Source: Camelus ferus
Taxonomy: Eukaryota
Assembly (NCBI RefSeq): GCF_009834535.1
Contig: NC_045696.1
Location: 6,512,001 to 6,572,000 of the forward strand
Length of the DNA stretch: 60,000 bases
Reading direction: 5' to 3'
In this document: positions 1,121 through 60,000 of the stretch, piece by piece
How the letters are laid out: every line of letters begins with the position of its first letter
Position numbering within the stretch: the stretch's first letter is position 1
Translations under genes and position numbers: made by a program
The notes under the pieces: generated by a model
What the model was told of the DNA's origin: nothing
Databases searched by the model: none
Seen by the model: only the letters and a program-made list of their open reading frames with translations

Positions 1121-1527
1121 TGACAAAACCTGCCTGCTTGAAGGAGATACTTTGCAATCATAATGGCTGTGAGGAACTTTGAACTAAACTAGGTATATAC
1201 ACTTGATCAACAAGACCTTCCTCTGGGGTTTCTTAATTCTGGTCACCCCCATGTCTGCTTTTTGGCCAACTGTTTGTCCTTACTGAGATAAACAGCGGGG
1301 CTGTAGATTTTGTTTCCATCTTAGCGAGTGACATTCATACACCTCTGCTCTTTTCTTTCACTTGATTGATTCATATCATTTCTACCTTCTGGATACTTAC
1401 CCTGTGTGCTCAGCCCCTGAATAACAAACCCCTGGCAACATGTGAGGCCTTCGTGGAATTCTTCCAGGCTCCCGGCCTCATGCTTTCCCTGGTGATCCAT
1501 TCTGTCATCACTTAGCCCTGATTTTTT

Positions 1528-1731
1528 TTTCTTATTCTTTAAAAAAAATTTTTTTTAATTGAAGTATAGTTGGTTTACAACATCGTGTTAATTTCTGGTG
1601 TATAGCATCATGATTCAGCTACTCATTATAGGCTATTACAAGGTATTAAATATAGTTCCCTGTGCCATACAGTAGGACCTCATTGTTTATATTTTATGTA
1701 TAGTCGTGTATATCTGTAAATCCCAAACTCA
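1528..1731 (-). mobile_element. 5'-truncated LINE-1 3' end with target-site duplication
   Basis: Poly-T then aattgaagtatagttggtttacaac...atagttccctgtgccatacagtagg; flanks ttagccctgatttt and ttagctctgatttt. Confidence 0.9.
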
Positions 1732-3591: not shown

Positions 3592-6513
3592 GTATTTGCT
3601 GTCATTTCACAGATTAGAGTGATTCCATGTATATATATAAAGAAAAGATGATGGAGATACAATAAAAACAGGAAACGGTTTGACAAACAGAGGTATGAAT
3701 CTGTAGATTGTAAAAGTACATATTTAAAGCTGAGTTGTCAGAGCATGACGGGGCTCAGCAGTGACGGGGTACACACATATTGGTTAGTCTGAGATTTCTA
3801 ATATGTCCCAAAGAGTAGCTCAACCTTAAGAAACACGTCACTATTATGCTAAAGCAAATTTAGGCTGAAGACTAGTTTAAAAATTGGAGGAAAACAAGAA
3901 CACGCATCTGGTAGCATGGTTTAGTGATCAGATGGAGTGCTATATATAGCAAGGGAGTGAAGTGTGATGGAGATTTTGGTAAACGCACACCGCCAGGACT
4001 TACAAGTAGTGGGACTATTTGCTCGTAAAATCTGCATGTCACGTGGGATTTCCACCTTCATAACATTCCTGTGAATTTCATTAAGTCGTATTTTGGAGCG
4101 GGTCCTTTTGGAATGGAGATGACTGTTTACTAAAGCATTCTTTTTTGTAACTTACAATTCCATGACACCCTGCAGAAATAATTCTTCAAAAATAGATCCA
4201 AGTTGGCTGTCATCCTGATGACAGCCTTCCTCTCCTGATGGCTGTTTAATACTCTGTGTCAGCACACAAACACAGCTTCCTCTCATGATCTGGAAGTTTG
4301 TTTTTGTAAAAAGTCCCTGATACAGTCATACTTCCTGCAATGATTTGCTTTAATACAACATCCTTAGTCTTAAGATTTGATTGCAGATGAAAGAATATGG
4401 TTAAATTAGAGTAAATGAAAAACAATCATTCCTTTGAACTCCCCTCCAATCACATTCTTGGAAGCTCTTTACTTTTTCAGGAATATTAAGGACATTTGCA
4501 ATAATAAGAATAATAAGCCAAGAGCTCACATTTATTAGCTCAGAATTAACTTCTGATTTTTTTTTAAGAGAATAGGTACTGTGTAATCTATTGTAGTAGC
4601 TCCATTGGAGTCTAATCTTAGGTGGTTTCTATCTTTAACTTGAATATTTTTGAGGGATGAAATTGGACATCTTATGTGGGTGGAAAGGCATGGATACTAG
4701 ATAAGATTTTGGCCTTGAATAAAGATCATAGTTAAGTACTATCTCATAAGATGTGAGCTGCTAAACAAAAAAACTTGGTGATGGACTTTTAGGTTGATGC
4801 CTTCATCTTTGGTTTTGCCCATCCAGCGCTGGTTAGGAATACAAAACCACTGACCTGATTCTCTAACAGGGGTTGGGAATCAGGGCTTCTGTGCACCATG
4901 TATAGGAAGACTTGGAGCTGCAACCTTTCCATGGAGGACAGGCTCAAAGAGGTCGCCGCTCCAGGCTGCACAAAATGTACCAAAGTTCCCTGCATTTGGC
5001 TGAAATTTACTTGTACTAGATTTATGGCCTTTACCTCCCTTTGTGACATCTTTGGCATTTATACTCATGTCCGTTGGGCCCTTCGACTTCTACAGCCAAT
5101 TCTTGTGATTTTATTAGGAATTAATTATCAACTCCAATCAACAGCTCTTTCTTCGTCTTTTCTTTTTACGCACTAGTAACATACTAAATGAAAAATAAGA
5201 ATTCCTGTCCCCAGTTTTTAGGCATCTAAATGCTCACAAATTATTAATTCGGGTTGATTATTTTTAACCCGCAGGATTTACATGACTTGACAGAGTGGGC
5301 AGCAAAGAAGATGAACAGTCAACCAACCATATGTCAAGTTGCAAGGAAACAGAGCCTAACAGGAGAACTGACAGAGGATGAAGATGAAATCAAATGGGTA
5401 GAGCTTTATTTCTACCTCCTGTTTATTTTTCATTAAGTGGCTAGGAGAAGAACTTGGGGAAAAAGCTGGACAAAACCCATCAGTGTTTCTTAAAGGCTAG
5501 GAAAACGGCTACTCCTGGAATCCAGAAGAAAACGTTGACACAATCTGTTGTAATGCAAGAACGAATGACCAAATTCTCCCCTGCAAAGAAATTCTTTTCC
5601 ACTAACAGAAGTCTTCTTATGTGGAAGTCTAGTTGACCAACTATTAGTTTTTATCTTTTACACATTTCTCACTGCCTTCCTTACTCTGAAGATAAAGACT
5701 TTGTTTCAGATTTCTTTTAGAAAATCAAAACAACACAACAATAAAAACAAAATCTACTGACAAACACTAATGCCTCAAGAAGTTAAGTAACTCCTTTATT
5801 CTTTAAAATTCCAATTAAATTCTAATTATACTGTTTCATTGCAAATTCTCACCCTGGAGATTTGAACTCTGTTCATAAAGCAGCTTACTCTGAGAGCAAA
5901 TCTATTCATTACTGTTCACAGACCCAAGGACCAGTTGGTAGATCATTCTGATTAAAGATAAACTGAAATTCACAAAAGGCAAAATGTATGTACTCAATCA
6001 GTTAGAAGGGAAGTGTTAAGGTTTAGACCTTCAAGAGTAAGTCTTCCCAGCGGAAAAAAACTTAAGTGCACCTTAAGCCTATGCAAAGTCGAATGCTGGA
6101 AGTGGAGTACACACTACGGAACGTGGAAATCAAGACTTGAAATGCTAATCCCTTTCATTTAGAAGAAAATCCCATCCCAGAAAACTATGATAAAATAACT
6201 TGCATTCAAAACTAGTCATTTCAAATATTTCCCTGATAAAATCTAGCAAGAAGAAAAGCCCAGACTGAGAGACTAAAAGGTTTCTTTATGCAAATGGTTG
6301 GATGTCTGACCCTTTGACCACAGTGACCAAATATAGAACCAAGCCCAAGGATGAGGGGGATCCTTGCAAAGGAGCTACCATGCAAAGGCCTCGTGTCTTC
6401 CTAGCTTTGCTTTTCTCTTTTCTTCTTTCTCCAGATGGCGTATGAGTACTGAGGATCTAAGCAAGGGAGAAAGATTCATACTGGAGCAGGTGTCGTTTTT
6501 CATATGTCTTAAC

Positions 6514-6600
6514 ATTTTTTTTATGGAAATGTAGTTAGTTCACAATGCTGTATTAATTTCTGGTGCACAGAATAGTGATTCAGTTGTGCATATATCCTTT
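6514..6600 (-). mobile_element. Short LINE-1 3' end with TSD
   Basis: ttttttttatggaaatgtagttagttcacaatgctgtattaatttctggtgcacag; atatgtcttaa on both flanks. Confidence 0.8.
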
Positions 6601-9492: not shown

Positions 9493-10620
9493 TCAGACAT
9501 TGCTCTGCTGCAGCAAAAGAGTCCTCAGTTCCCTTTCCCTCTGATCTTCCTGCCTGTACTTCTCCTCAAGTTTCTGCTTCTCAGAATCTGCACAGTAAGA
9601 GATGCAATTTGAGCTCTTCCGGATCTGTTCAAACTGACTGAAGTCAGCCACGTACTTGCCGTTTTTGGAGAGAGAAACCACAGGCACAAACTCAAAGCCC
9701 CAGTAGATCTCCTCCGGGATGTAAGATGTGCGGCTCTGGCAGACAGCGCTGGTGGACTCCACGGTGGCATTGAGGAGGACCACAAGCTCAAACTCCTTCT
9801 CCTTGAGGTTCTGGGGGGTGAGGTCCCTCAGGGGGCTGGTCTCATCCAGCACATGGTAGAAGGTCATGGGCAAGATGAGGAAGGGGCTCTCGGAAGAGGA
9901 GTCCACGTGGAATTTGACGGTGGCCTGGTTGAGGAGGATCCGCTCGCCCTCCTTGGTGACGTGGGTCTGCAGGAGCTTGCCCGAGAGCTGGCACTGAATC
10001 AGGAGGCTCTTCCTCATGTTGGCCACCTGGATCACCAAACACAGCTTCCCATTGTGCTTGGTGATGACAGCACAGTGGCTGAACTTGATGGTCTCCGCCC
10101 GCTTCTTGGGTCTCGCGATTTTGGCCAGGAAGGTGCCCGTGATGAAGATCTCAATCAAGGTCGTGATGACCAGCTGAGCCACCAGCAGGAAGATGGCGTG
10201 AGGGCATTCCTCCGTGATGGAGCGGACGCCGTAGCCGATGGTCGTCTGGGATTCCAGTGAAAAGAGGAATGCCCCCGTGAGGGAGTCCACTTTCATGATG
10301 CAGGGGGTGCGGTTTGAAGAGTGCCCACTGGGCTCTAGGTCCCCATGAATGAAGGCGATGGCATAGTAGATCACTCCAAAAAGGAACCAGGTCATCACGA
10401 AGGTGGCAGCAAACAGGGTGAGCTTGTATCTCCACTTCATGTCAATGACAGTGGTCCACAGGTCTTGGAGGTAAAGCAAGTATATGCCATCCACTTTGTC
10501 AATTCGCACGTTGCTGTGTCCACTCTTGGACATGACTCGGGGTCTGCTGGTCTTGAGGCCAGCTCCCATCGTGGGCTTCACCAGGGGAGGACTGGACATG
10601 CCAACATGGATGGCTTCCAT
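9493..10620 (-). CDS. KCNJ15: Inward rectifier potassium channel Kir4.2 (375 aa, intronless CDS)
   Basis: Translation [10 protein letters not shown]...[15 protein letters not shown]...[16 protein letters not shown]...[11 protein letters not shown] (K+ filter)...[23 protein letters not shown]...QQSNV (PDZ-binding end). ATG at 10618-10620 has a strong context (ACA ATG G); 1128 nt = 375 codons plus stop. The ORF-track start at 10776 lies upstream of a splice acceptor. Confidence 0.98.
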
Positions 10621-10660
10621 TGTCGGACTCCTGGGACCACCTAAGGAAATGACAGACGAA
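10621..10660 (-). other. KCNJ15: Splice acceptor and 20-nt 5'UTR part of the KCNJ15 coding exon (exon starts at 10640)
   Basis: Minus strand reads tcgtctgtcatttccttag|GTGGTCCCAGGAGTCCGACA-ATG: pyrimidine tract with AG at 10642-10641. Confidence 0.85.
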
Positions 10661-10804
10661 GACTTTCCATTACTACTTTGGGTGGTAGAAAGTCCAGAAA
10701 ATAGAAACAGGACACTCATGTGAAATAAGTATGAATGCACATGGACATTTACAAGAAAGAAGAATTCTGAAGGCAATACTAATCAACTTGTTCTTGGGGA
10801 AGGC

Positions 10805-15347: not shown

Positions 15348-15766
15348 TGCTGCGATGCTGATGTCGGATCATATCAGCAGCTTAGCAGCTGTTCTTGCTT
15401 GATGAATGTCCTGCTCTCTCACCTCCCCTTAGCACTGGAAAATAACACTGTTGCAAGTAGACATGGAGAACATCTGTGTATTACTTTTCAGAAACATCTG
15501 GTCTCCACCATCCTTCTAGGTAAATGACTGCCAATGACAGTGGCCGAAGACTAAGTACTAATTTTTCTTCAGTAGATACAAAGTATGTAATTACCTGCTG
15601 TAATATTTATCAAAAATGAATTGGTTTAATGGAGACTCACTGAAAAATACTTTATGAAAACTTAACAATAAAAGATCGTGTCCATGTTTGCACTTATGTG
15701 CAAACATTAAACCTTTCGATGAGGAGTTAAGACTACAGATATCTCCACTGATAGGTCTCCTTATTC

Positions 15767-15866
15767 TTTTTTTCAATTTTTTTCTTTCTTTTTTTCAATT
15801 GAAATATAGTCAGTTTACAATGCTGTATCAGCTTCTGATCTACAGCATAATGTTTCAGTCAATATA
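15767..15866 (-). mobile_element. LINE-1 3' end fragment
   Basis: T-rich tail then aattgaaatatagtcagtttacaatgctgtatcagcttctg...cagcataatgtttcagtc; same family as 47770-47974. Confidence 0.85.
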
Positions 15867-15894
15867 CAATAAGCATTAACTTTTTAAAGCAGCA

Positions 15895-17785: not shown

Positions 17786-17852
17786 GGGATGGTTTTACTA
17801 CATCCTTTTGTATGTTAGGATTACCTGCTTGATCTCAAAGGTACTGTATTTA

Positions 17853-18080
17853 CATTACTGTATATAAAATAGATAAACAACAAGGACCCACTGTATAGCA
17901 CAGGGAACTATATTCAACTTCTTGTAATGTGCCATAATGGAAGAGAAACTGAAAAAATATAAATGTGTGTATATATACAGTTATATATATATCTATCTCT
18001 CTCTATATATATATCGCTTTGCTGTACATTGAAACTGACATTCTAAATCAACTACATTTCAATAAAAAAATAAGTTAAAA
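17853..18080 (+). mobile_element. 5'-truncated LINE-1 3' end with 16-bp TSD
   Basis: tatataaaatagataaacaacaaggacccactgtatagcacagggaactatattcaa...caataaaaaaa; TSD aaaggtactgtattta (17837-17852) and aaagctactgtattta (18081-18096). Confidence 0.92.
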
Positions 18081-22836: not shown

Positions 22837-22980
22837 TGGTAGCTCACGGCGAAAAAAATGTGACAATGAATATATGTATGTTCATGTATAACTGAAAAAT
22901 TGTGCTCTACACTGGAATTTGACACAGCATTGTAAAATGACTATAACTCAACAACAAAAAAAAAGTTAAAAAAAAAAAAA
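22837..22980 (+). mobile_element. Young LINE-1 3' end with long poly(A)
   Basis: tgtgacaatgaatatatgtatgttcatgtataactgaaaaattgtgctctacactggaatttgacacagcattgtaaaatgactataactcaa plus A-tail; flanks aagatctctgga and aaggtctctgaa. Confidence 0.9.
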
Positions 22981-23749
22981 GGTCTCTGAAGCCACTGCAT
23001 GTTGAAACACTGGGCTTTCCACTATGACAAAGTCACAACCGGGGCTGAAATGATTGTGGTATGTGATATATTCATAGTAAAACAAAAAGCCTAACTTTTA
23101 GTTAGAGGTGATTGAGAATAAACTGTTCCTCTTCCCCCACCTCCCTCCACCCCTCCCCACCATCCTAGGTCATGGTCACTCCTGAATTCTGCCTCTAATC
23201 TCTCCAGGCTCCATGGACCTGGATGTAACCCTTGCTGTGAGTGAGGCTTCTCCACGCAGCAAATCTGATTATGTCACAGAAATCAGGCCCAACTACTGAA
23301 TCCTTAATTGATTTCCCTACCAACACTCTTGCCATGGTAAACAATTAGCCTCTCAAATAGATGCTGTTTTCTTGTGGAAGAAGAGTTGGGACACTTAACA
23401 GTTGACTCCTTTTCCAGTAAGACATCCCTGCACGCACTAGTGGTGGCGGTGACCACCATCTGGTTGGTTAGCAAGTAATCTGAGCAGCGACAATACCAGC
23501 AGGGAGACGTTCCAGCACCTCCCACCCTGGAAGTAATGGTACAGCTTCTCACAGGGAAACAGAGGAGGAACTGCTGCTCGGGGAGATATGCAATTCACGT
23601 GCTGCGTTTCTCAGAACTCGGAAGCTGGATTTTCACAGTTAATATGCTATTCAGTTGCATGCAACTTTAGATTCCCGTGATTTCATCATAACTCTAACCC
23701 AGAAGCAAAGAAAGCTTACTCATCTAAAGGGTAGTAATTCGGACAGTTC

Positions 23750-33270: not shown

Positions 33271-33944
33271 AGACAGGAGGGAGAGCGGACAGGTTACGTC
33301 CACTGCACGTGTACATGTCAAGCACTTACTCTTTTCCAGACTCTTCTAGACACTGGGGACCCAAGAGCACAGATAAGATTCTTGTCCTCATGAAGCCTCT
33401 TCTCCAGGTGTGGGGAACAAGGAGGAAGATGAGAAGCTTATTAAAAAGTCCTGAGCAGTGGAGGATGCAACTTGAGGAAATGTGCTCTTTCTTAGTCCGG
33501 GGACTGGCGGTAGCACCCCTTGGTGTAGGAGGACCAAGGTGGAGAAACGTAGAACGACCTGGACTAGCCCCCAGGAAGCACGCAGGGGAGGTGATAAGAG
33601 GCGGAGAAAGGAGACCAGCCAGTCGCAAGGGCCCCGTCAGCTCCCCACGCGGGAACTGGCACCTTTGGCCACACACACCGTGGCCTCGCAGCCCAGGAGC
33701 ACGGCTGAGTGTGGAAGAGGTGGGCTGCTCCGAGTTAGGTACTGGCAAGGTCTCAGTGGTGAGAGGTTACCGGGCCTCGGGATTGCGGATACCACATTAG
33801 AAACATGAACATTTGAAAAACCGCAGAATGGAAATACTCAAGGTCACGGCACACTCATCAGCTCGTGGAATCTAGCTAGTAACTGAGCACATTAGGAAGC
33901 CTGCTAACTCTGCTCTCGAGTTTTAGAAGGGCTATAATTTGGTA

Positions 33945-35896: not shown

Positions 35897-36070
35897 GTGT
35901 ATGTGTGTGTATGTGTGTGTGTGTGTGTGTTTTCAGCTGAAGTACAGTTGATTTACAATATTGTGTTAGTTTTAGGTGTACAGCAAGGTGGTTCGGTTAT
36001 ATATATATGTATGTATCTATATTCTTTTTTTTTCTGATTTTTTTCCATTACAGTGTATTATAAGGTGTTG
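35897..36070 (-). mobile_element. LINE-1 3' end whose tail has become a (TG)n microsatellite (35897-35930)
   Basis: (TG)n then tgaagtacagttgatttacaatattgtgttagttttaggtgtacagcaaggtggttcggttata. Confidence 0.85.
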
Positions 36071-46162: not shown

Positions 46163-47769
46163 GTCCCGGCACTGGAGAAAACTCACAAGAAGTTCATAGC
46201 GATCAGCTCCCGACCTGGGCAACAAGGACTGAAATAGCATGTGGCTTGAAACCCAAATCTGGCCACCTGGGTCCTCAAAACAGCCTGGGAACTGGATCCT
46301 TTTCTGCAGTGTTCCTCCTCTGAGCCATTCCTTTGTATTCCGACGGCCCTGATGGTGACTCTGAGGATGGGTGGGATTTGTCATCCCAGGGACACAGTCA
46401 GACCCTGAGGTCATTTCCCTGAACCTGGAACCCTAAATGTGGGCATAAGCAGCCAGTGCAGCCCCCTGGTTACAGACCAGCCCCCTCCACCACACCACAG
46501 GAAGGAACGGCTTGCTGTGTTTAATGTGGATCAATACACTTCTAGCTTCCTCTGAGTCTGAGCTGCAGGGTCACAGGGAAGAACAAAACAAAACTGTGCT
46601 CATTCTGTTGCTGATTCTTTCCAGCATCCCCTCTAGGTCCTCAGCCCCCAGGTAGCACTGACGCTGCCTTCTCTTTCACTGTTTCCTACGGATGGGAGTG
46701 TTCTGGTGCCACAGACCACCCGCTTGTCCTTATGTATCTTCTGATGCCGTGAACCTGATCAGGCAACCCAAGTTCATCTCCATCTCATAACTAACGTGTC
46801 TAGAGTTCTGTGCTGGAGGATTTTAGGTCCGGAAGCACAGACTGTGTTCTGGAGTTAGGCCATGTGTGAACGTCTAGAATCAAACTGGATTGCAGTGACT
46901 GTTGGCTGATGGAGCCCTTCATCAGGTGATGCATGATATCAATCGAAGGGAAGGTTAAGTGTGCAGACTCCTCACAGGCGCCAACCTCTATCAGAAGAGC
47001 AAAAATGGTTTTTGGCTGAAAAGCCCTGGGAATATGGTTGAACTTTCTATGTGGACTCCAGCTGCACTGTGAGGAGTTGCCCACATCACTGTCCGCATCA
47101 GCCCACTGAGCATTCTGCCGGCCGGGGGCAGGGGTGGGCAGCCATTTCTCAGTCTCCCCTTTCTGGCTTTGCCTTTTATCAGGAATGCCCACATGCTCAT
47201 TTTTTCCCCTTTTCTCCCAACAAAGTAACACTGAGCAAGTAAAACTTCTTTCCCGGAACTTTTGCTTTTAGATTGTAAGTTATTCTCTCTTCCTTTGTGC
47301 CCTCAATTCTCCCTTCCAAGGTGAGGAAGCAGGCTGCCCTTGGTTCCTTTAATTGTCGGAGGGTTTGACTACTTCTGGCCACACTGCATTCTCCCCATTT
47401 CTAAAACTGGTGGCAGAAAACCACCAGAGTGGCAGCAGAGAGTCAGGTGTGTTGAGTCACATCTGCCTCCTCCGTGACGCTGCACCCTTGAGGGGCACAG
47501 GGCAAGTGCAGTTAGCTCCTCTGCTCTGCTCCTACCCAGCCCGGCCGCTCCAACTGCGCCCAAGCCTCCTCCCCAGGTGTGTCTACAAGTCACAGGTGAA
47601 GGGCTGGAGAGAGGACGGGGGGTCATAACCTCGGTCTGCCGTGCAACTTCACTTACCCATTAGCAAGCACCACACTCTGCTCGGCCAGCATAAGCTAACG
47701 TTAACTCTTGCCATGGCTTTTGAACTCTTTCTGGAGCAGAATTATGTTTATTGAAAAGAAGGGTTGATA

Positions 47770-47974
47770 CTACATATAAAATAGATAAACAACAACTTTC
47801 TGCTCTGTAGTGCAGGGAACTATACTCAATATCTCGTAGTAACCTATAATGAAAAAGCATATGAGGAGAAATGTGTGTGTATATGTATGACTGAAATACT
47901 GTGCTGCACACCAGAAGCTGACACAACATTGTAAACTGACTGTACTTCAATTTAAAAAAAAATTTTAAGTTAAA
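47770..47974 (+). mobile_element. 5'-truncated LINE-1 3' end with degenerate TSD
   Basis: atataaaatagataaacaacaactttctgctctgtagtgcagggaactatactcaatatc...cacaacattgtaaactgactgtacttcaatttaaaaaaaaa; flanks aaaagaagggttgata and aaaagaagcgctgaca. Confidence 0.9.
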
Positions 47975-52700: not shown

Positions 52701-55700
52701 AGTTTGCATTAGGCTGCATTCTTCTCGGATTAGTCTATTGTGGGCATACATATGCCTGTGTAGGTTCCTGTGAGCAACAAGTAATACATCACATGAATTA
52801 TAATCGTAGGCTCATCCTCTGGCAAGTTTTAGTTCTTGCAGGACCTTACACAGTACAGCTCATATCCATTCATAACAGCCTTTAAAAATGATGAAAGGAG
52901 AAAGGAGAAACACCGAAGCAGTATGAATACACAAAATAACTCAAAGTTTAAGACAATATTCTTTATTTTGGTGACGTTAAGCTAGTTTTGTTCTTTTTTA
53001 TTTGGGGAGATGTGGAACAATTAGGTCCTGAGGTTGAAGAGCTGATGGAATTCACAAAAGGAGGGAAGGCGTAATAAACACATGCCTGAAGATTTGAGAG
53101 GTGAGTGGGAAAATTCTAGACTCAGCAACCATAAGGCTTCTGTCACCAGGGACAGGTTTTATTCTATGTTTTAATACTTCAATGATCTAAGTATTTTTGG
53201 AAGTTTCTGAGGGTAAATGAGGGAAATAAGGCAAATTATTAATCTTCACATAGCAGTTTTTGTCACTCACTCTCCCTCCCATCCAATGAGTAAAAGTTAC
53301 GTCATAATCTGGTTCTAAGGAGTCGGGTCTGCAATCTACCATATGAGCTGTCTTCAAATAACACAGCTAATCATTTTGTAGTGGAAGATGATCAATGCTA
53401 TTGACCTTTTAGCCTAAAACAGAAAACATGAGTGACTATTCAGTAAATTGTCTTTCTGTCTGTCTGTCTGTCTTTCCTTCTTCCTTTCTTTCCACTTAAC
53501 TGAAAGCAAGACTGTCATGTGTGTCAAATGTAAAAAGAATATTCATCTAAAGTCTGGATTTTTATCCAAAGTTCTAAAAAGATGTCTGAACACTGGGCAG
53601 AAAAGGTCACAAGAACCAGCTTTTCCAAGAGAACCATTTCCCAAAAATAATTTCCTAAAAAAAAAAAAATTAAAAAGGCTGCAGTGATTCCAATTCTCAT
53701 CTTGGCTTCAATCAAGACAGAAAAACCTTCAAGTATGATGAGAGGGAAAAATACACATTTTTACCTTCGAATAGGTCTGTTTCAGTTGGGTTAGATATGG
53801 AACTGCTTATGGGGGGTTATGTCAGATTTCAAAACTTCTGGAAACCACCTAGGATCCCCACCCCAGCTTACAGCATCCTCCATGGGCTAGGCGGGATCTG
53901 GTCAGTTGCCTCCAGTTTGCCCCCATCCAAGGTTTGTAAAATTCCCCTCTGAGTGCAGGTGAGCCATGGAGGGTGAAGGATGCTCTTCAGACATTTCAGT
54001 ATTCTGCAACCCCTGCCTCTGGCCTGCCCAGTGAGAAGTTGTCTTAGGAAGCTTTTGGGTTGAAATCCTGTCTTGAAGTGGGCGCTGGAGAAGCGCGTGT
54101 GAGACAAGGTTGCTTGTGCACGTTAGCAAAGAAGCACTGCTGGGAGGAACCTGGGGGTGTGGGGGAGCTGGCCGGAGGAGGGGAGAAGTCAAGGGAGTGT
54201 GAGACCTCAGGCCAAGGCCAGCTCCCCGTCTGATTCGGGGGGAGTTCTGGCATAAAAGTAGCACCTCGGGTAAGGGTAATGGGTGATGGTAATGAGGTAA
54301 TGGGGCTTCCGTGATCTTGCCCCAGTCAGTCTGGTCTAGGAACAGAAAGCGTGATGGGTCATGCAGTCTCCCGAGTGCTCTGGCTCTCTGCATCTGCAAA
54401 GAGGGGGCTCCTCTGGTCCAGGGCACCCTTGCGGAGCTGGTCGCAGGAACTGCGGGTCCTCAGGGGTAATGCACACACAGGCGTCGGCACGGGCGCCCGG
54501 AAATGGTGCAGGAGCTCCAACAAGATCTGGGCAGACGACCAACCACACTGGCCAAAGTCACTAACCCTGTGCATGCTGGAGTGATTCCCTCCCCCGGCAC
54601 GCCAGCCCCCCCTATCACGGCCCCTCACTCCCTCCACGTCTCCCACCCTCCTCCTCCACTCCACCTGGTTTCCAACCAAAATAATATCGGGGATCTCAGC
54701 ACTAAGACTGGAGTCTGATGTAAGATGCACGTGGTCTTATTGTGGACATGGTCAGCGACTCCCAGTGCCAGAAAGGCTCCCTTCTATCGCTAATAGAGCC
54801 CTGAGTTATTGGTATCATGTCCGTGTTGTTTGGTTAGTAACTAAATTGGGTGCCTTCTCTTTGCCACAGTCCCTGAACTGGAGTCAACTGCAGTTCAGCA
54901 GAGAGATAGGCAAATAGCTGGGTAATACATCATAGTAGGTGCTACATGATCAAAATATTCTAGAAGCCCATTGGAAGGGCAGTGGACTTTGCCTGGGAGC
55001 TTGAGGTAAGGCTTCCAGAACAGGGGTCAGTCAAGTTCAACGGACAAGATCTCTATAGGTGGAGATAAAGAAGGGTTGTACACATTCCGGGAAAGAGAAA
55101 CAGAACAAATAATGGTGACGATTAAAAGAGCCCAGGGGGAAAAAGGAGACAAGAGAGCTGAACTCCGGGTCAGCTTCACGATGCAGCTCTGCCATTAGCC
55201 TCACAGCGTTTAGATGGGAGGGATCTAGAAAAATGCTTGGGTCACAGAATCATTAAGAGTGTTTCATTAATTACGAGAGAATATAGGTCAAATTTGCCTG
55301 CCTATGGCCTCAGGGGACAGAAAGTTACTCTTCTCTTTCAACATCAGAAGAATCAAAGCCACGTTTCATTAATTAACATTAACATTTTATGTATGTTATT
55401 AGTCTTTTAAACTATGAACTCAGAGCTCAGATTGGTTCTCTCTCACGTCTACCTTCCAGATTCAGACTTTTAAGTCACTAAACAGAAATGAACTAACTTG
55501 CCCTGAACGGCTGTGTTCCAGAAAGGGCAAGAAGAAGAATCACAAAGGCTCGGTTAGAGCTTGAGGGAGACCGGAGAGCATCCTGTCCAGACTCCTAGTG
55601 ATTCCAGATAAGACCCTGAGGACAAAAGAGTGACTTTCACAGCATCCATAGAGCCAGGAACCCATCAACACTTCATGGAAGGTTCTTGTACACCGTACCG

Positions 55701-56713: not shown

Positions 56714-57143
56714 TTTTTTTTTTTTTTAAATTTAAACAACTTTATTGTGGTATAATTTCTGTACAGTAAACTACACATATTTCAGATGTACAATTTGATG
56801 AATTTTGGTAGATGGATACACCCATGAAACCACAGTCAAAATACCTAACAATTCCATCAGTCTCCAAGAGGTGCAAATTTCAAACTCCCAATTTATCCCT
56901 TCCCACCCCCTTTACCCCTTGGTAACCATAAGTTTGTTCTCTATGTACAATGGAATACTACTCAGCCATCAAAAAGAATAAAATAATGCCATTTGCAGCA
57001 ACGTGGATGGACCTGGAGATCATCATTCTAAGTGAAGTCAGCCAGAAAGAGAAAGAGAAATGCCATATGATTCACTTACACGTGGAATCTAAAAAAAAAA
57101 AAAAAAAAGGACACAAATGAACTTATTTACAAAACAGAAACAG
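56714..57143 (-). mobile_element. Composite, internally inverted LINE-1
   Basis: Poly-T and old-type L1M 3' end on minus (56714-56866), young L1 3'UTR on minus (56871-56946), then the upstream-adjacent L1 segment on plus (56947-57143, acaatggaatactactcagcc...aaaacagaaacag). Confidence 0.8.
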
Positions 57144-57490
57144 GCACATTTACTAGTTTTTAAACCAGGTCCTGTAGGACAAATCCACCCCCCTCCAGTG
57201 GGCAGGTCACCTGTCTGTGGACTCTTCTAGCAGGTTTCCAGTTACCTGTCTCCTTTTGTTCCTTGGGGCTCCCAGCAGGGGAGCAAATGAGACTGAGAGT
57301 AGCCTCCATTCCCCTCTGGAATTTTTGCCATCTTCCCAGCACCATTCCCAACAAAAAAGAATTCAGCCTCAGGAAAACCCTGAGGCTGCCTTAGGGCTTT
57401 CTCCTATTCCTCTTTAATGGGATGGCACAAAAATTATCCCCAAACTCAATAGTTACTTAATAGAAATGTTACCTCCATGTGATTCCTCTG

Positions 57491-57741
57491 TAGAGGGACA
57501 GGTCATCCTGGTTTTCCCACGACTGTCCCAGTGTTAACCCTGAAAGTCTCATATCCTGGTATATTCTGTGTGGATTCACAGAGAAATGATTCAGGACGTT
57601 ACCAATGAAAGCGTTCCGGCATAATAACATCACTGGATGCCAAGCCAAATAAAGAGCCAGAAAACGTATAATGTGCACCCAGCGGCCTGTGCCAGAGGCC
57701 AGGGACTGCACTTGGGGAAAACGCGATGGCTGGTTACCCTA
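57491..57741. mobile_element. MER81-like hAT-Blackjack MITE split by an insertion (halves 57491-57559 and about 57714-57741)
   Basis: tagagggacaggtcatcctggttttcccacgactgtcccagtgttaaccctgaaagtctcatatcctgg ... ggggaaaacgcgatggctggttacccta; 8-bp flanks ttcctctg and tttccctg (6/8 identical). Confidence 0.75.
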
Positions 57742-59060
57742 TTTCCCTGTGTGTCCCCAGCTCTTTTGTAGACAACTGTCAAATTTTAACACAAAATTTT
57801 TAAAGTGTTAATCTAGGCATGGTATCCTAATTTGTTAACACCAACTGAACATTTACTAGAATATATGGAAAATCCAATTTTGTCAAATGGGAAGATGTAG
57901 ACTTAAAAAGTTAGATGCAGGAAATCCCTGACACTCTGTACAGAGGCTGGTCTCCTCGGTGACTCTGAGTCCCCACACACATCGTGACTTGGGAGAAATG
58001 AGCTGCACAGCACCACTGACACGAACCCGGTGGTGATCTGGTCTCCTCTTGCCTTCTTCAAATGGCGCTTTATTGCCTTAGCAATTGTTGGTGCAACTTT
58101 ATACTGCACGTTAAATACACACATTTTGTTCCTGGTTCACTTCAGACCCACTCTTACCAAGTGAACTGTTCCGTGGTGATTTCCATCAATGAAGGTGCGT
58201 GGTGATGACTGGTTTTCACTGTTGACGGCTTGGCTGGTCAATAGAAATGCAACATCCACAGGGCAGTTTCCATCTCCAGGCTGCTGCGACCAGAATGACC
58301 CCACCTTCCTTTCACAGTCTAGCCACATCATTCATCTGGCACGTGCTACGTACTGGCTTGAATTAACCTGCCTCTTCTATTGCTGTTTTATTGTTGTTAG
58401 CTCTGAACCGACTCCCCAGGTGACCATCTAGGCCAGACAGTGAGACGTCTGTGGCCATGGACCCCCCTCTTCAGCAGATGGCCAACCACAGTATTTCAGG
58501 CATAGTAGGTGGAGTCTGAGTCCAGAACTCAGAGCCACATTTGGGCTATTTAAACTACGGTAGTACGGAAAATGCTATATCATCCTGAATAATTTCAGTG
58601 ATTAACTGGGGAACACAAAAGTAGCGAATCATTCTACCTTTTCCCTTGGTTTTCATATTTTAGTGCTTTGTCTTTGATTTGTGATAAGTCACATACCTTG
58701 GCTTTAAAAAAATCAGGGAGTCACTGGGGTATCTTTCTTCTCGGCTTGGAGATGTCAAACCATAGGCAGTGTGTTTGACTCTATCTGCTGGACGCAGGCA
58801 CTGTCCTCCCTCACCAAGCTCCGCCCAACTGCACCATTCTTAGACCTCACTTGTTCTAACATTTCTTGCCGTAATATTTTGGTTCCTGAGCACATGTAAA
58901 GCCTCTTTCCCATTTCCCCCAAGTGCAGTCCCTGGCCTCTGGCACAGGCCGCTGGGTGCACATTATACGTTGTCTGGCTCTTTATTTGGCTTGGCATCCA
59001 GTGATGTTATGCCGGAACGCTTTCACTTGTAACGTCCTGAATCACTTCTCTGTGAATCCA
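57571..59060. repeat. About 150-bp inverted repeat (arms 57571-57720 and 58913-59060, spacer 1192 bp)
   Basis: Manual reverse-complement alignment: four substitutions, one 3-nt indel and one 1-nt indel over about 150 bp. Confidence 0.97.
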
Positions 59061-60000
59061 TATAGTCTCTACCTCTGATAAGCACACAGAAGAAAGTGAC
59101 TAACACCCTGGTTCCACATCAGTATCACCATTTCTTCTACAAGGCGTAACTGCAGGAAAGCCTAGGAGAATTCTCCTGACTCATTTTAGATATTTATTAT
59201 TTGCAGAACTGGGTAAACAACTAGGATTTTACTTTGGGAGCCTTCCCATTGCAAAGTTGTAACTCGTGGCCAAACATTCTAGTTACTGTGGAAAAACTGA
59301 GCAATGCAAATTGGCAAAACGATGTAAAATGAAGATCCCAGCCGAGCTGTCATAAATTCTAGTGGACTTCATACTGAAGATTAGTAGGAGTATGGTAAGA
59401 GGGGGTTGGGCACTCAAAATCTCAGCTCCTCATCCCCCTGAGCCAACAGTAGGTGCTAATTAAGCCAACACTACCTTGAGAAGTAGCTTTCCCCAGGGCT
59501 ATGCATACTTGTTAAAGAAAAAAAGTGTCTGCGGTCATTCTTGGTCTAGCATTGCACTTTATCTTACCAAGTGCACTTGTAGAGGTGACTGAGTCACCAG
59601 CCGAACAAGGTGATGATAAAGAATGCCAGTAAAGGGATATTTTTTCCTTGCTGTTCCTCTTGATGGTCCAACCTGAGGAACAGGAGCTGGAGACATAGGA
59701 GGCAAGGCTGGGCTCCTGAAACCAAAGAGGTACAGGATTTGAACTTCTTGATGTTTGATAGCACCAGTGCAACTGAAAATGGAGTGATCAAACGTTCTGT
59801 GCTCTTCCTTTAAGAAATATTGCTAAGGTTATTGCACCTCGTGCATTATTTTTGATCACATGCTGAAGGATATTGTCCGTCTGCATCACTGGCTCTGCCC
59901 CTCTAGCTTTGGTTTGCCATCACGGTCGCCCTAACCAGAGTGAGCGCGGACTTGTGACCCGCTCTTCTCCAAACTACTTTCATTGGCGAATGTCTCCTAA

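What the first reader, a model, noticed from the sequence alone, without database searches (positions are those of the whole stretch)
57491..59066. Inverted ~150-bp templated insertion inside a MER81-like MITE, copied from 1.2 kb away
Seen: 57571-57720 is the reverse complement of 58913-59060 (4 substitutions, 2 small indels), and the arms do not resemble any repeat I recognise. The left arm sits between two collinear halves of a MER81-like element (57491-57559 and about 57714-57741), of which roughly 20 nt appear missing. At the right junction GGGGAAA belongs to both the copied arm and the MITE (microhomology); the left junction has about 6 extra nt (tatatt). Inference: the left arm is the derived copy, made by template switching during repair (MMBIR or polymerase-theta-type), not by inversion of the spacer. 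High arm identity means it is much younger than the MITE. It lies 7-8 kb upstream of the main KCNJ15 exon, so it may duplicate a regulatory element, promote inversion of the spacer, or form a ~150-bp dsRNA stem if transcribed.
Basis: partly seen in the sequence, partly recalled or inferred. Interest (0 to 1): 0.7.

Follow-up and report, generated by a model that had tools for sequence, protein, structure and literature searches.

The report
Old DNA-repair scar: local inverted copy
A 150-letter stretch of camel-family DNA was copied backwards into an old dead transposon 1.2 kb away while a break was being mended; this is a real and unusually clear example of a known, common kind of repair scar, with no sign of a function.

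Summary
The inverted pair is real: 57571-57721 is the reverse complement of 58913-59060 (5 substitutions, one 3-nt indel), the only near-identical pair in the window. Contigs from two other animals carry the left arm with both junctions, so it is no assembly artefact. Three other loci of those genomes match the flanking element but none matches the arm interior. Their continuation shows that the flanks are one ~114-bp palindromic element (MER81-like; name not tested against a consensus) that lost 16-17 nt where the copy went in. So the left arm is the derived copy. Size, distance, deletion, microhomology, filler and lack of poly-A/TSD match the repair-mediated duplications of Pace et al. 2009 (median 147 bp, mean distance 1.2 kb; 202 found in cow). 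The likely mechanism is break repair with ~150 nt of synthesis on a nearby template, by fold-back of the resected end or by strand invasion. Typical Pol-theta insertions are shorter and nearer. Corrections: the KCNJ15 coding exon lies 47 kb away, not 7-8 kb; no function is shown; outgroup genomes could not be tested. New member of a known kind; low interest.

The parts
57483..57490 (.). Possible left 8-bp target-site duplication of the old element
   Evidence: 6 of 8 match to 57742-57749 at the boundaries fixed; binomial P about 0.005 for that one test; 8 of 168 boundary pairs scanned reached 6/8
57491..57559 (+). Left 69 bp of a MER81-like palindromic DNA-transposon relic (host element)
   Evidence: 3 other loci match 57499-57552 at 83-89%; loose ends of two of them begin TAGGGTGAC in register with about 57491
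57560..57570 (.). Junction zone, 11 nt: filler, or an error-rich end of the copied tract; preceded by a 2-nt GG microhomology (57558-59 / 59073-72)
   Evidence: 6 of 11 match the donor in register, P about 0.05; or the first 8 nt are an inverted copy of 57858-57865, expected 0.034 by chance within 300 nt; unresolved
57571..57721 (-). Left arm = acceptor: inverted copy of the right arm
   Evidence: no differences from the window inside the arm in the junction-spanning contigs of both DNA runs
57715..57721 (.). Microhomology shared by the copy and the right part of the element (up to 7 nt)
   Evidence: 57715-57722 is the exact mirror of 57511-57518 within the element and matches the donor through 57721 in both DNA runs; if this copy read like the other family copy seen, it is a shorter or one-mismatch microhomology
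57715..57741 (+). Right 27 bp of the host element with its terminal inverted repeat
   Evidence: Its reverse complement starts TAGGGTAACC, 9 of 10 like the TAGGGTGACC start of another family copy; on its own the left/right match is weak (659 of 20,000 random draws score as well)
57742..57749 (.). Possible right target-site duplication
57722..58912 (.). 1,191-bp spacer between the arms (includes the right end of the element)
   Evidence: one contig spans it in each DNA run
57858..57865 (-). Candidate second, short template for the junction filler
   Evidence: exact 8-nt inverted match to 57560-57567; suggestive only
58913..59060 (+). Right arm = inferred donor; in-register similarity may run on to 59073
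   Evidence: donor status inferred from the interrupted element around the other arm, not from outgroups
9493..10620 (-). KCNJ15 (Kir4.2) coding exon, context only, 47 kb away
   Evidence: ORF; exact protein is in a 5-member cluster whose representative is named KCNJ15 of Camelus ferus; Kir-channel PDB hits

Best explanation
A repair-mediated duplication fixed in a camelid germ line. A break fell inside an old MER81-like relic and 16-17 nt were lost. One 3' end annealed by a few bases to the opposite-orientation sequence 1.2 kb away, about 150 nt were synthesised, the new strand was released, and it was joined to the other end. Shown: the copy, its polarity, the interrupted element, the deletion, microhomology at the inner junction, the untidy outer junction, and no poly-A or TSD. 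Inferred: the break and the synthesis route. Two routes fit about equally. (a) Fold-back: the minus-strand 3' tail of the right end pairs at the up-to-7-nt microhomology with the same strand at 58913-19, which needs about 1.2-1.36 kb of resection; it copies outwards, aborts, and joins the left end through GG plus filler. (b) Invasion (SDSA-like): the left end primes at GG on the sister, homologue or intact duplex, starts untidily, and finishes at the longer microhomology. Age is of order 7.5 My (2.4-17.6) if 5 differences are neutral at 2.2e-9 per site per year; younger if some arose during copying. Most likely neutral.
For: Single near-identical pair in 60 kb. At 80% likeness no other locus lay on the arm interior in 4 of 4 runs, while the element's left half drew 3 other loci in 3 runs and 2 in the fourth: an internal positive control. 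Family continuation rejoins the right flank after 16 nt; 69 + 1 + 17 + 27 fits the 114 bp reported for MER81. No A/T run of 5 or more and no flanking direct repeat of 5 or more at the insert. Pace et al. (PMC2671141): proximal duplicates have median 147 bp, peak and mean distance about 1.2 kb, microhomology 2-9 nt, deletion 1-15 nt, filler 1-68 nt; MH+deletion+filler is the commonest class (10 of 39); 202 in cow, 192 in dog. Fold-back at 2-8 bp inverted microhomology with spacers from 766 bp is documented (PMC3907307); mouse meiotic resection averages 1,100 nt with 1% over 1,800 (PMC7263140).
Against: No outgroup locus was seen: no genome is held and one 20-nt scan of metagenome contigs found 0, so the empty site rests on other family copies. 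The deletion (16-17 nt) is just above Pace's 1-15 nt range. The MER81 name was not checked against a consensus. The length of the microhomology depends on what this copy read before the break. A nearer 7-nt inverted partner exists at 58639, so the donor was not the only or nearest choice. The DNA contigs did not cover the outer half of the right arm. Pace et al. give no orientation statistics in the passages found.
Confidence: 0.85

Rival explanations
1. RNA-templated patch (class 2 TSIP type): a cDNA or RNA of a transcript through the donor was used to mend the break.
For: Class 2 TSIPs also show microdeletion, microhomology and added bases without TSD or poly-A (PMC5110952). On the KCNJ15 sense strand an acceptor-like pyrimidine tract + CAG ends at 59075, 1 nt outside the furthest in-register match. 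RNA-library contigs lie in the region at depth 2-4.
Against: 7% of 2,058 minus-strand YAG sites in the window are as pyrimidine-rich. The one RNA-library contig over the site (59043-59254) runs through unspliced, and no joints were listed. An RNA patch does not predict a donor 1.2 kb away; Pace et al. found retroposition marks in 0 of 39 proximal cases.
Confidence: 0.06
2. Replication template switch without a double-strand break (FoSTeS/MMBIR-like): a stalled fork at the quasi-palindromic relic switched to the opposite strand 1.4 kb ahead, copied 150 nt and returned 17 nt further on.
For: Same end product; microhomology at both junctions; germ-line inverted templated insertions occur in people (PMC8421209 section 10). 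Differences between arms lie towards the outer end (P 0.04 with 8 events, 0.006 without 57718; post hoc), as error-prone synthesis might leave.
Against: Cannot be separated from break repair by sequence; the cited MMBIR events were sought within 100 bp. The skew vanishes for the core alone (P 0.23), and paired mismatches and longest identical run are not significant. The relic folds no better than shuffles as it stands (z -0.92, insert included).
Confidence: 0.15
3. Both arms are copies of a rare dispersed repeat, or the ends of a larger mobile element, inserted independently.
For: Inverted ends 1.2 kb apart look like a transposon's termini; no repeat library was available to exclude a low-copy family.
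Against: No third copy in the window or among contigs of 4 runs at 80% likeness. The right part of the host element lies inside the spacer, directly after the left arm, so the arms do not bound one insertion. No TSD at the insert. No Rfam hit in the window.
Confidence: 0.03
4. Older duplication kept alike by gene conversion between the arms (affects the age, not the origin).
For: In both DNA runs the graph branches at 57721/58913, which needs 58916 to equal its partner; in run X9 the shared 98-nt contig has 0 differences from the left arm at depth 32.5 against 11.4 in the spacer, as if the inner 98 nt were identical.
Against: A popped assembly bubble gives the same picture; depth is no copy number; a private variant or error in the window at 58916 is enough.
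Confidence: 0.1

Closest known systems
Repair-mediated duplications (RDs), Pace, Sen, Batzer and Feschotte 2009, PMC2671141
   Same: Found by the very signature seen here: a transposon split by a sequence of 50 bp or more with one donor within 5 kb; median 147 bp, mean distance 1.2 kb; microhomology, small deletion, filler; no poly-A or TSD; present in cow and dog.
   Different: Camelids were not surveyed; deletion here is 16-17 nt (their range 1-15); they propose SDSA and give only one example with stated opposite orientation (ACSBG2) in the passages found.
Fold-back inverted duplications, Hermetz et al. 2014, PMC3907307
   Same: Inverted microhomology at the spacer-side junction and a kb-sized single-copy spacer.
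   Different: There synthesis runs on and yields megabase duplications with terminal deletions; here it stopped after about 150 nt and the chromosome was rejoined.
Polymerase-theta templated insertions (TINS), PMC7165422
   Same: Microhomology-primed synthesis, inverse-repeat class, second microhomology often longer than the first; could explain the AT-rich 6-8 nt filler.
   Different: Tracts rarely over 10 bp per round, template typically within 30 bp; the 150-nt tract from 1.2 kb is atypical.
MMBIR templated insertions (MMB-TI), PMC8421209
   Same: Inverted copy near its template, flanked by microhomology, seen as germ-line variants.
   Different: Their search takes templates within 100 bp.
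Class 2 templated sequence insertion polymorphisms, PMC5110952
   Same: Junction marks of break repair, no TSD or poly-A.
   Different: Donors are distant and an RNA intermediate is proposed.
MER81 (114-bp palindromic eutherian DNA transposon with two RELA motifs), PMC12212084 and PMC5424272
   Same: Joined length about 114 bp, palindromic, multicopy, old.
   Different: This copy is split and has no kB-consensus match within one mismatch today; identity with the MER81 consensus was not tested.

Membership tests
Repair-mediated duplication (Pace 2009) | Transposon interrupted by 50 bp or more, halves collinear within 30 bp of consensus position | tested here: met
   About 155-nt insert; another family copy continues across the gap with 16 nt more (by eye; proxy for the consensus)
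Repair-mediated duplication (Pace 2009) | Insert found at only one other place in the genome | tested here: inconclusive
   One partner in the window; no other locus laid on the arm interior in 4 of 4 runs at 80%, but contigs are filtered and no whole genome was available
Repair-mediated duplication (Pace 2009) | Donor more than 50 bp and less than 5 kb away | tested here: met
   1,191 bp
Repair-mediated duplication (Pace 2009) | Junction marks: microhomology, deletion and/or filler | tested here: met
   2 nt outer, up to 7 nt inner microhomology; 16-17 nt deletion; 6-11 nt junction zone
Repair-mediated duplication (Pace 2009) | No poly-A/T tail or retroposition TSD | tested here: met
   none found
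Repair-mediated duplication (Pace 2009) | Empty orthologous site in outgroups | not testable with these tools
   no eukaryote genomes; 0 hits in metagenome contigs; both animals laid carry the insert
MER81 | Alignment to the Repbase/Dfam MER81 consensus | not testable with these tools
   no repeat library; consensus letters not found in the 9 supplementary files searched or by paper search; the name is recalled
MER81 | 114-bp, palindromic, multicopy element | tested here: met
   69 + 27 bp present, 16-17 lost, 1 lost near the start; terminal inverted repeat; 3 other loci; length and palindrome from PMC5424272 Table 1 and PMC12212084
MER81 | 8-bp target-site duplication of hAT elements (recalled feature) | tested here: inconclusive
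   6 of 8 at the inferred ends
MER81 | Two RELA motifs | tested here: not met
   no match to a recalled kB consensus within 1 mismatch in 57480-57760; a kB-like GGGAACCCC lies in the part that another copy has across the deletion. Most MER81 copies have lost the motifs (734 of 3,639 keep one), so this does not argue against the name
Pol-theta TINS | Short tract (rarely over 10 bp per round), template typically within 30 bp | tested here: not met
   150 nt from 1.2 kb; may still apply to the filler
L1-mediated retroposition / class 1 TSIP | TSD of 5 bp or more, poly-A tail | tested here: not met

The most novel reading that the evidence does not exclude
The insert is an aborted intrastrand fold-back of a resected germ-line (possibly meiotic) break: the 3' tail paired back on itself 1.2 kb away and copied until it met the end of the single-stranded tract, so the far end of the donor (about 1.36 kb from the break) records a resection endpoint from millions of years ago. 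If inverted repair-mediated duplications generally arise this way, their 1.2-kb distance peak would be a fossil of mammalian resection length (mouse mean 1,100 nt) rather than of SDSA on a homologue, and could be read across species. A side possibility: the event removed a kB-like site from a MER81 relic upstream of KCNJ15.
Probability: 0.2. Interest if true: 0.45.

Novelty: new member of a known kind. Interest (0 to 1): 0.17.

Why it matters
As a single locus it matters little: hundreds of such scars are expected in an artiodactyl genome (202 were counted inside cow transposons alone, PMC2671141). It is a clean, polarised example: the host element gives the direction and the pre-break sequence, so it can serve as a homoplasy-free presence/absence marker for camelid phylogeny and as one data point for asking whether inverted duplicates of this class come from fold-back of resected ends. 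It would matter more only if the spacer were shown to invert, the arms to be edited as dsRNA (they would form a 152-pair stem), or the donor to be an enhancer; none of this is shown.

Tried and rejected
Assembly artefact: rejected (also 14 of the 24 runs listed hold 0.90-0.96 of the words of 57300-59300, 6 studies; one of these may be the source). Inversion of the spacer as origin: rejected, an inversion makes no second copy and leaves the split element unexplained. Structured RNA: 0 Rfam hits in the window; 57480-57760 folds no better than shuffles. Spacer-inversion polymorphism: no joints in 4 of 4 runs, but contigs break inside the shared 98 nt, so an inverted allele would be invisible; no verdict. 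A-to-I editing: neither RNA-library run has a contig over the arm interiors; the A>G at 58188 is also in DNA run X9, and the A>G at 58426 is one contig at depth 2.9 in the spacer; no verdict. The lack of RNA contigs over both arms is not used as evidence (cover is under half of the stretch, with many gaps). No DNA contig was laid right of 58942; a hole proves nothing, and run X3 holds 0.95 of the words although 18% of the searched stretch lies there. Clustering of arm differences: not significant for the core. Terminal inverted repeat from the window alone: weak; it became convincing only with other copies. Outgroup search by a 20-nt pattern in metagenome contigs: 0 hits. Own genome: not held. 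Earlier findings of the scan: nothing. MER81 consensus letters: not found; figures and picture supplements of PMC12212084 could hold them and were not visible. 'KCNJ15' + 'camel': 7 papers, 6 listed, none about this locus by title and abstract start. Search for the 'doublets' paper of Thomas et al. did not return it; it is cited only through Pace et al.

Full report
Observation. The region 57571-57721 is the reverse complement of 58913-59060: 151 columns with five substitutions (57586, 57603, 57605, 57662, 57718) and a 3-nt indel at 57621-23 that reads as a tandem duplication in the left arm. A self-BLAST of the window gives E=4e-62 for this pair; the other 8 of 9 off-diagonal hits are 72-83% dispersed repeats, and a sensitive search with the arm finds no third copy. 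The spacer is 1,191 bp. Outside the core, similarity goes on in register to 57558/59073 with 8 matches in 13 (P about 0.009; 6 of 11 without the GG, P about 0.05).

Context. The only long ORF with a known identity is at 9493-10719 (minus). From its second methionine (10620) it encodes a 375-aa protein whose 5-member cluster is represented by KCNJ15 of Camelus ferus. The window is therefore camelid, and the left arm lies 46,951 bp upstream of the KCNJ15 coding exon, not 7-8 kb. Non-coding exons could not be placed. No genome is held for the window; Rfam gave 0 hits.

Not an artefact. Of 24 runs listed, 14 (6 studies, two organism labels) hold 0.90-0.96 of the words of 57300-59300. I laid 4 of the 24 on 57150-60000 at 80% likeness. 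In both DNA runs one contig runs from the left flank to 57653 with no difference inside the arm, a second spans 57692-58942, and a 98-nt contig (57624-57721) is shared by the arms. No joints were listed, so no empty allele was seen in these two animals, which differ from the window at about 0.06% and 0.28% of sites. No DNA contig was laid right of 58942; the outer junction of the right arm is bridged by one contig of an RNA-library run. The branch points match a model in which 58916 equals its partner 57718, not the window as it stands, so one of the five substitutions is private to the window or an error.

The host element. From the window alone the terminal inverted repeat is weak (659 of 20,000 random draws score as well). 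The runs settle it: three other loci lie on 57499-57552 at 83-89% (three in X3, X9, X16; two in X15), and none lies on the arm interior. Two loose ends begin TAGGGTGAC in register with about 57491; the reverse complement of the right end at 57741 begins TAGGGTAACC. One loose end continues past 57552, matches the window to the GG at 57558-59, then has 16 letters absent from the window, then rejoins it at about 57714-57722 (compared by eye). Present 69 + 27 bp, plus 16-17 lost at the insert and one near the start, gives about 114 bp, the length of the palindromic eutherian element MER81 (PMC5424272 Table 1; PMC12212084 section 8). The 8 bp on either side match at 6 of 8, as a decayed hAT target-site duplication might (feature recalled). 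An old element split by a young copy makes the left arm the acceptor.

Junctions. Inner junction: 57715-57722 mirrors 57511-57518 exactly and matches the donor through 57721 in both DNA runs, giving up to 7 nt of microhomology; if this copy read like the other copy seen, the overlap is shorter or has one mismatch. Outer junction: GG shared, then 11 unclear bases. Either the copy starts at 57560 with five errors, or 57560-57567 is an 8-nt inverted copy of 57858-57865 (0.034 expected within 300 nt) that hands over to the long template at CT. Neither is secure. There is no A/T run of 5 or more and no flanking direct repeat of 5 or more, so retroposition is unlikely.

What it is. Pace et al. 2009 (PMC2671141; I read parts 1-5 of 8 of the text, and passages) searched for transposons split by a sequence with one donor elsewhere. 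Of 1,136 human cases 824 had the donor within 5 kb, median 147 bp, peak and mean distance about 1.2 kb; all 39 proximal junctions inspected had repair marks (microhomology 2-9 nt, deletion 1-15 nt, filler 1-68 nt) and none a poly-A tail; 202 were found in cow and 192 in dog. This locus sits at the centre of that distribution. It meets four of six defining features tested, one is inconclusive (genome-wide uniqueness) and one untestable (empty site in outgroups).

How it arose (inferred). A break in the relic lost 16-17 nt. Route (a): the minus-strand tail of the right end folds back onto the same strand at 58913-19, which needs 1.2-1.36 kb of resection, copies about 150 nt outwards, is released and joins the left end. 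Fold-back at 2-8 bp of inverted microhomology with spacers from 766 bp is known (PMC3907307, passages) and mouse meiotic resection averages 1,100 nt, with 1% beyond 1,800 (PMC7263140, passages). Route (b): the left end primes at GG on a sister, homologue or intact duplex and ends at the longer microhomology; second microhomologies tend to be longer than first ones in Pol-theta repair (PMC7165422, passages). The sequence cannot choose between them, nor exclude a fork template switch (PMC8421209, passages and first part of section 10). Against a special role of the donor site, another 7-nt inverted partner lies nearer, at 58639. Classical Pol-theta insertions are too short and too near to account for the long tract, though they could explain the filler. 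An RNA patch (PMC5110952, passages) is unlikely: the acceptor-like site next to the donor is matched by 7% of 2,058 YAG sites and is crossed unspliced by the one contig there.

Age. Five differences in 151 give 7.5 My (95% 2.4-17.6) at the 2.2e-9 rate used by Pace et al., a primate rate. Errors during copying would make it younger, conversion older. Differences lean to the outer part of the arm (P 0.04, post hoc; 0.23 for the core alone).

Function. None shown. The arms would pair in a transcript (152 arm-arm pairs in the minimum-energy fold), but transcription is not demonstrated: the RNA-library contigs are unspliced, at depth 2-4, and miss the arm interiors. Spacer inversion is invisible to these contigs. 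The stretch lost from the relic corresponds to a kB-like motif in another family copy; MER81 carries two RELA motifs (PMC12212084: abstract, passages, section 8, text search of 9 supplementary files; figures not visible), but only about a fifth of human copies keep one, and whether this copy had it before the break is unknown.

Verdict. A real, well-polarised repair-mediated duplication: new member of a known kind, interest low. A search for KCNJ15 with camel returned nothing on this locus in the 6 of 7 papers listed; earlier findings of the scan returned nothing.

Noticed in passing
window 56868-57143: About 350 bp left of the split element lies what I recall as the 3' region of a young camelid-type L1 in two adjoining pieces of opposite orientation (switch near 56947/56948), with no poly-A tail and no flanking direct repeat of 6 nt or more, abutting an older L1M-like tail at 56714-56867. 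It may be a twin-primed insertion that lost its tail, or a second repair-type capture close to the first. Names and orientation are from recall, not from a library.
   Followed up: partly
window 58916: Both DNA runs imply a different base here, equal to its partner in the left arm; it lies at the border of two homopolymer runs and may be a private variant or an assembly error.
   Followed up: yes
window 57624-57721 / 58913-59010: In run X9 the shared contig matches the left arm at 57662 with high depth, in X3 it carries the right-arm letter: either bubble popping or gene conversion between the arms.
   Followed up: partly
window 59075-59096 (minus): Pyrimidine tract + CAG, acceptor-like, just outside the donor on the KCNJ15 sense strand; not seen spliced.
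   Followed up: partly
window 1526-1713, 6496-6584, 15766-15868, 17848-17976, 22885-22981, 35930-36007, 47768-47960: Mutually similar 70-120-bp dispersed repeats at 72-83% identity; family not identified.
   Followed up: no
window 33315-33800 (+) and 53902-54393 (-): ATG-initiated ORFs of 161 and 163 aa; not examined, probably chance.
   Followed up: no
window 10620-10719 (minus): The KCNJ15 frame is open for 33 codons upstream of the methionine whose product is on record; probably intron read-through in front of the coding exon.
   Followed up: no
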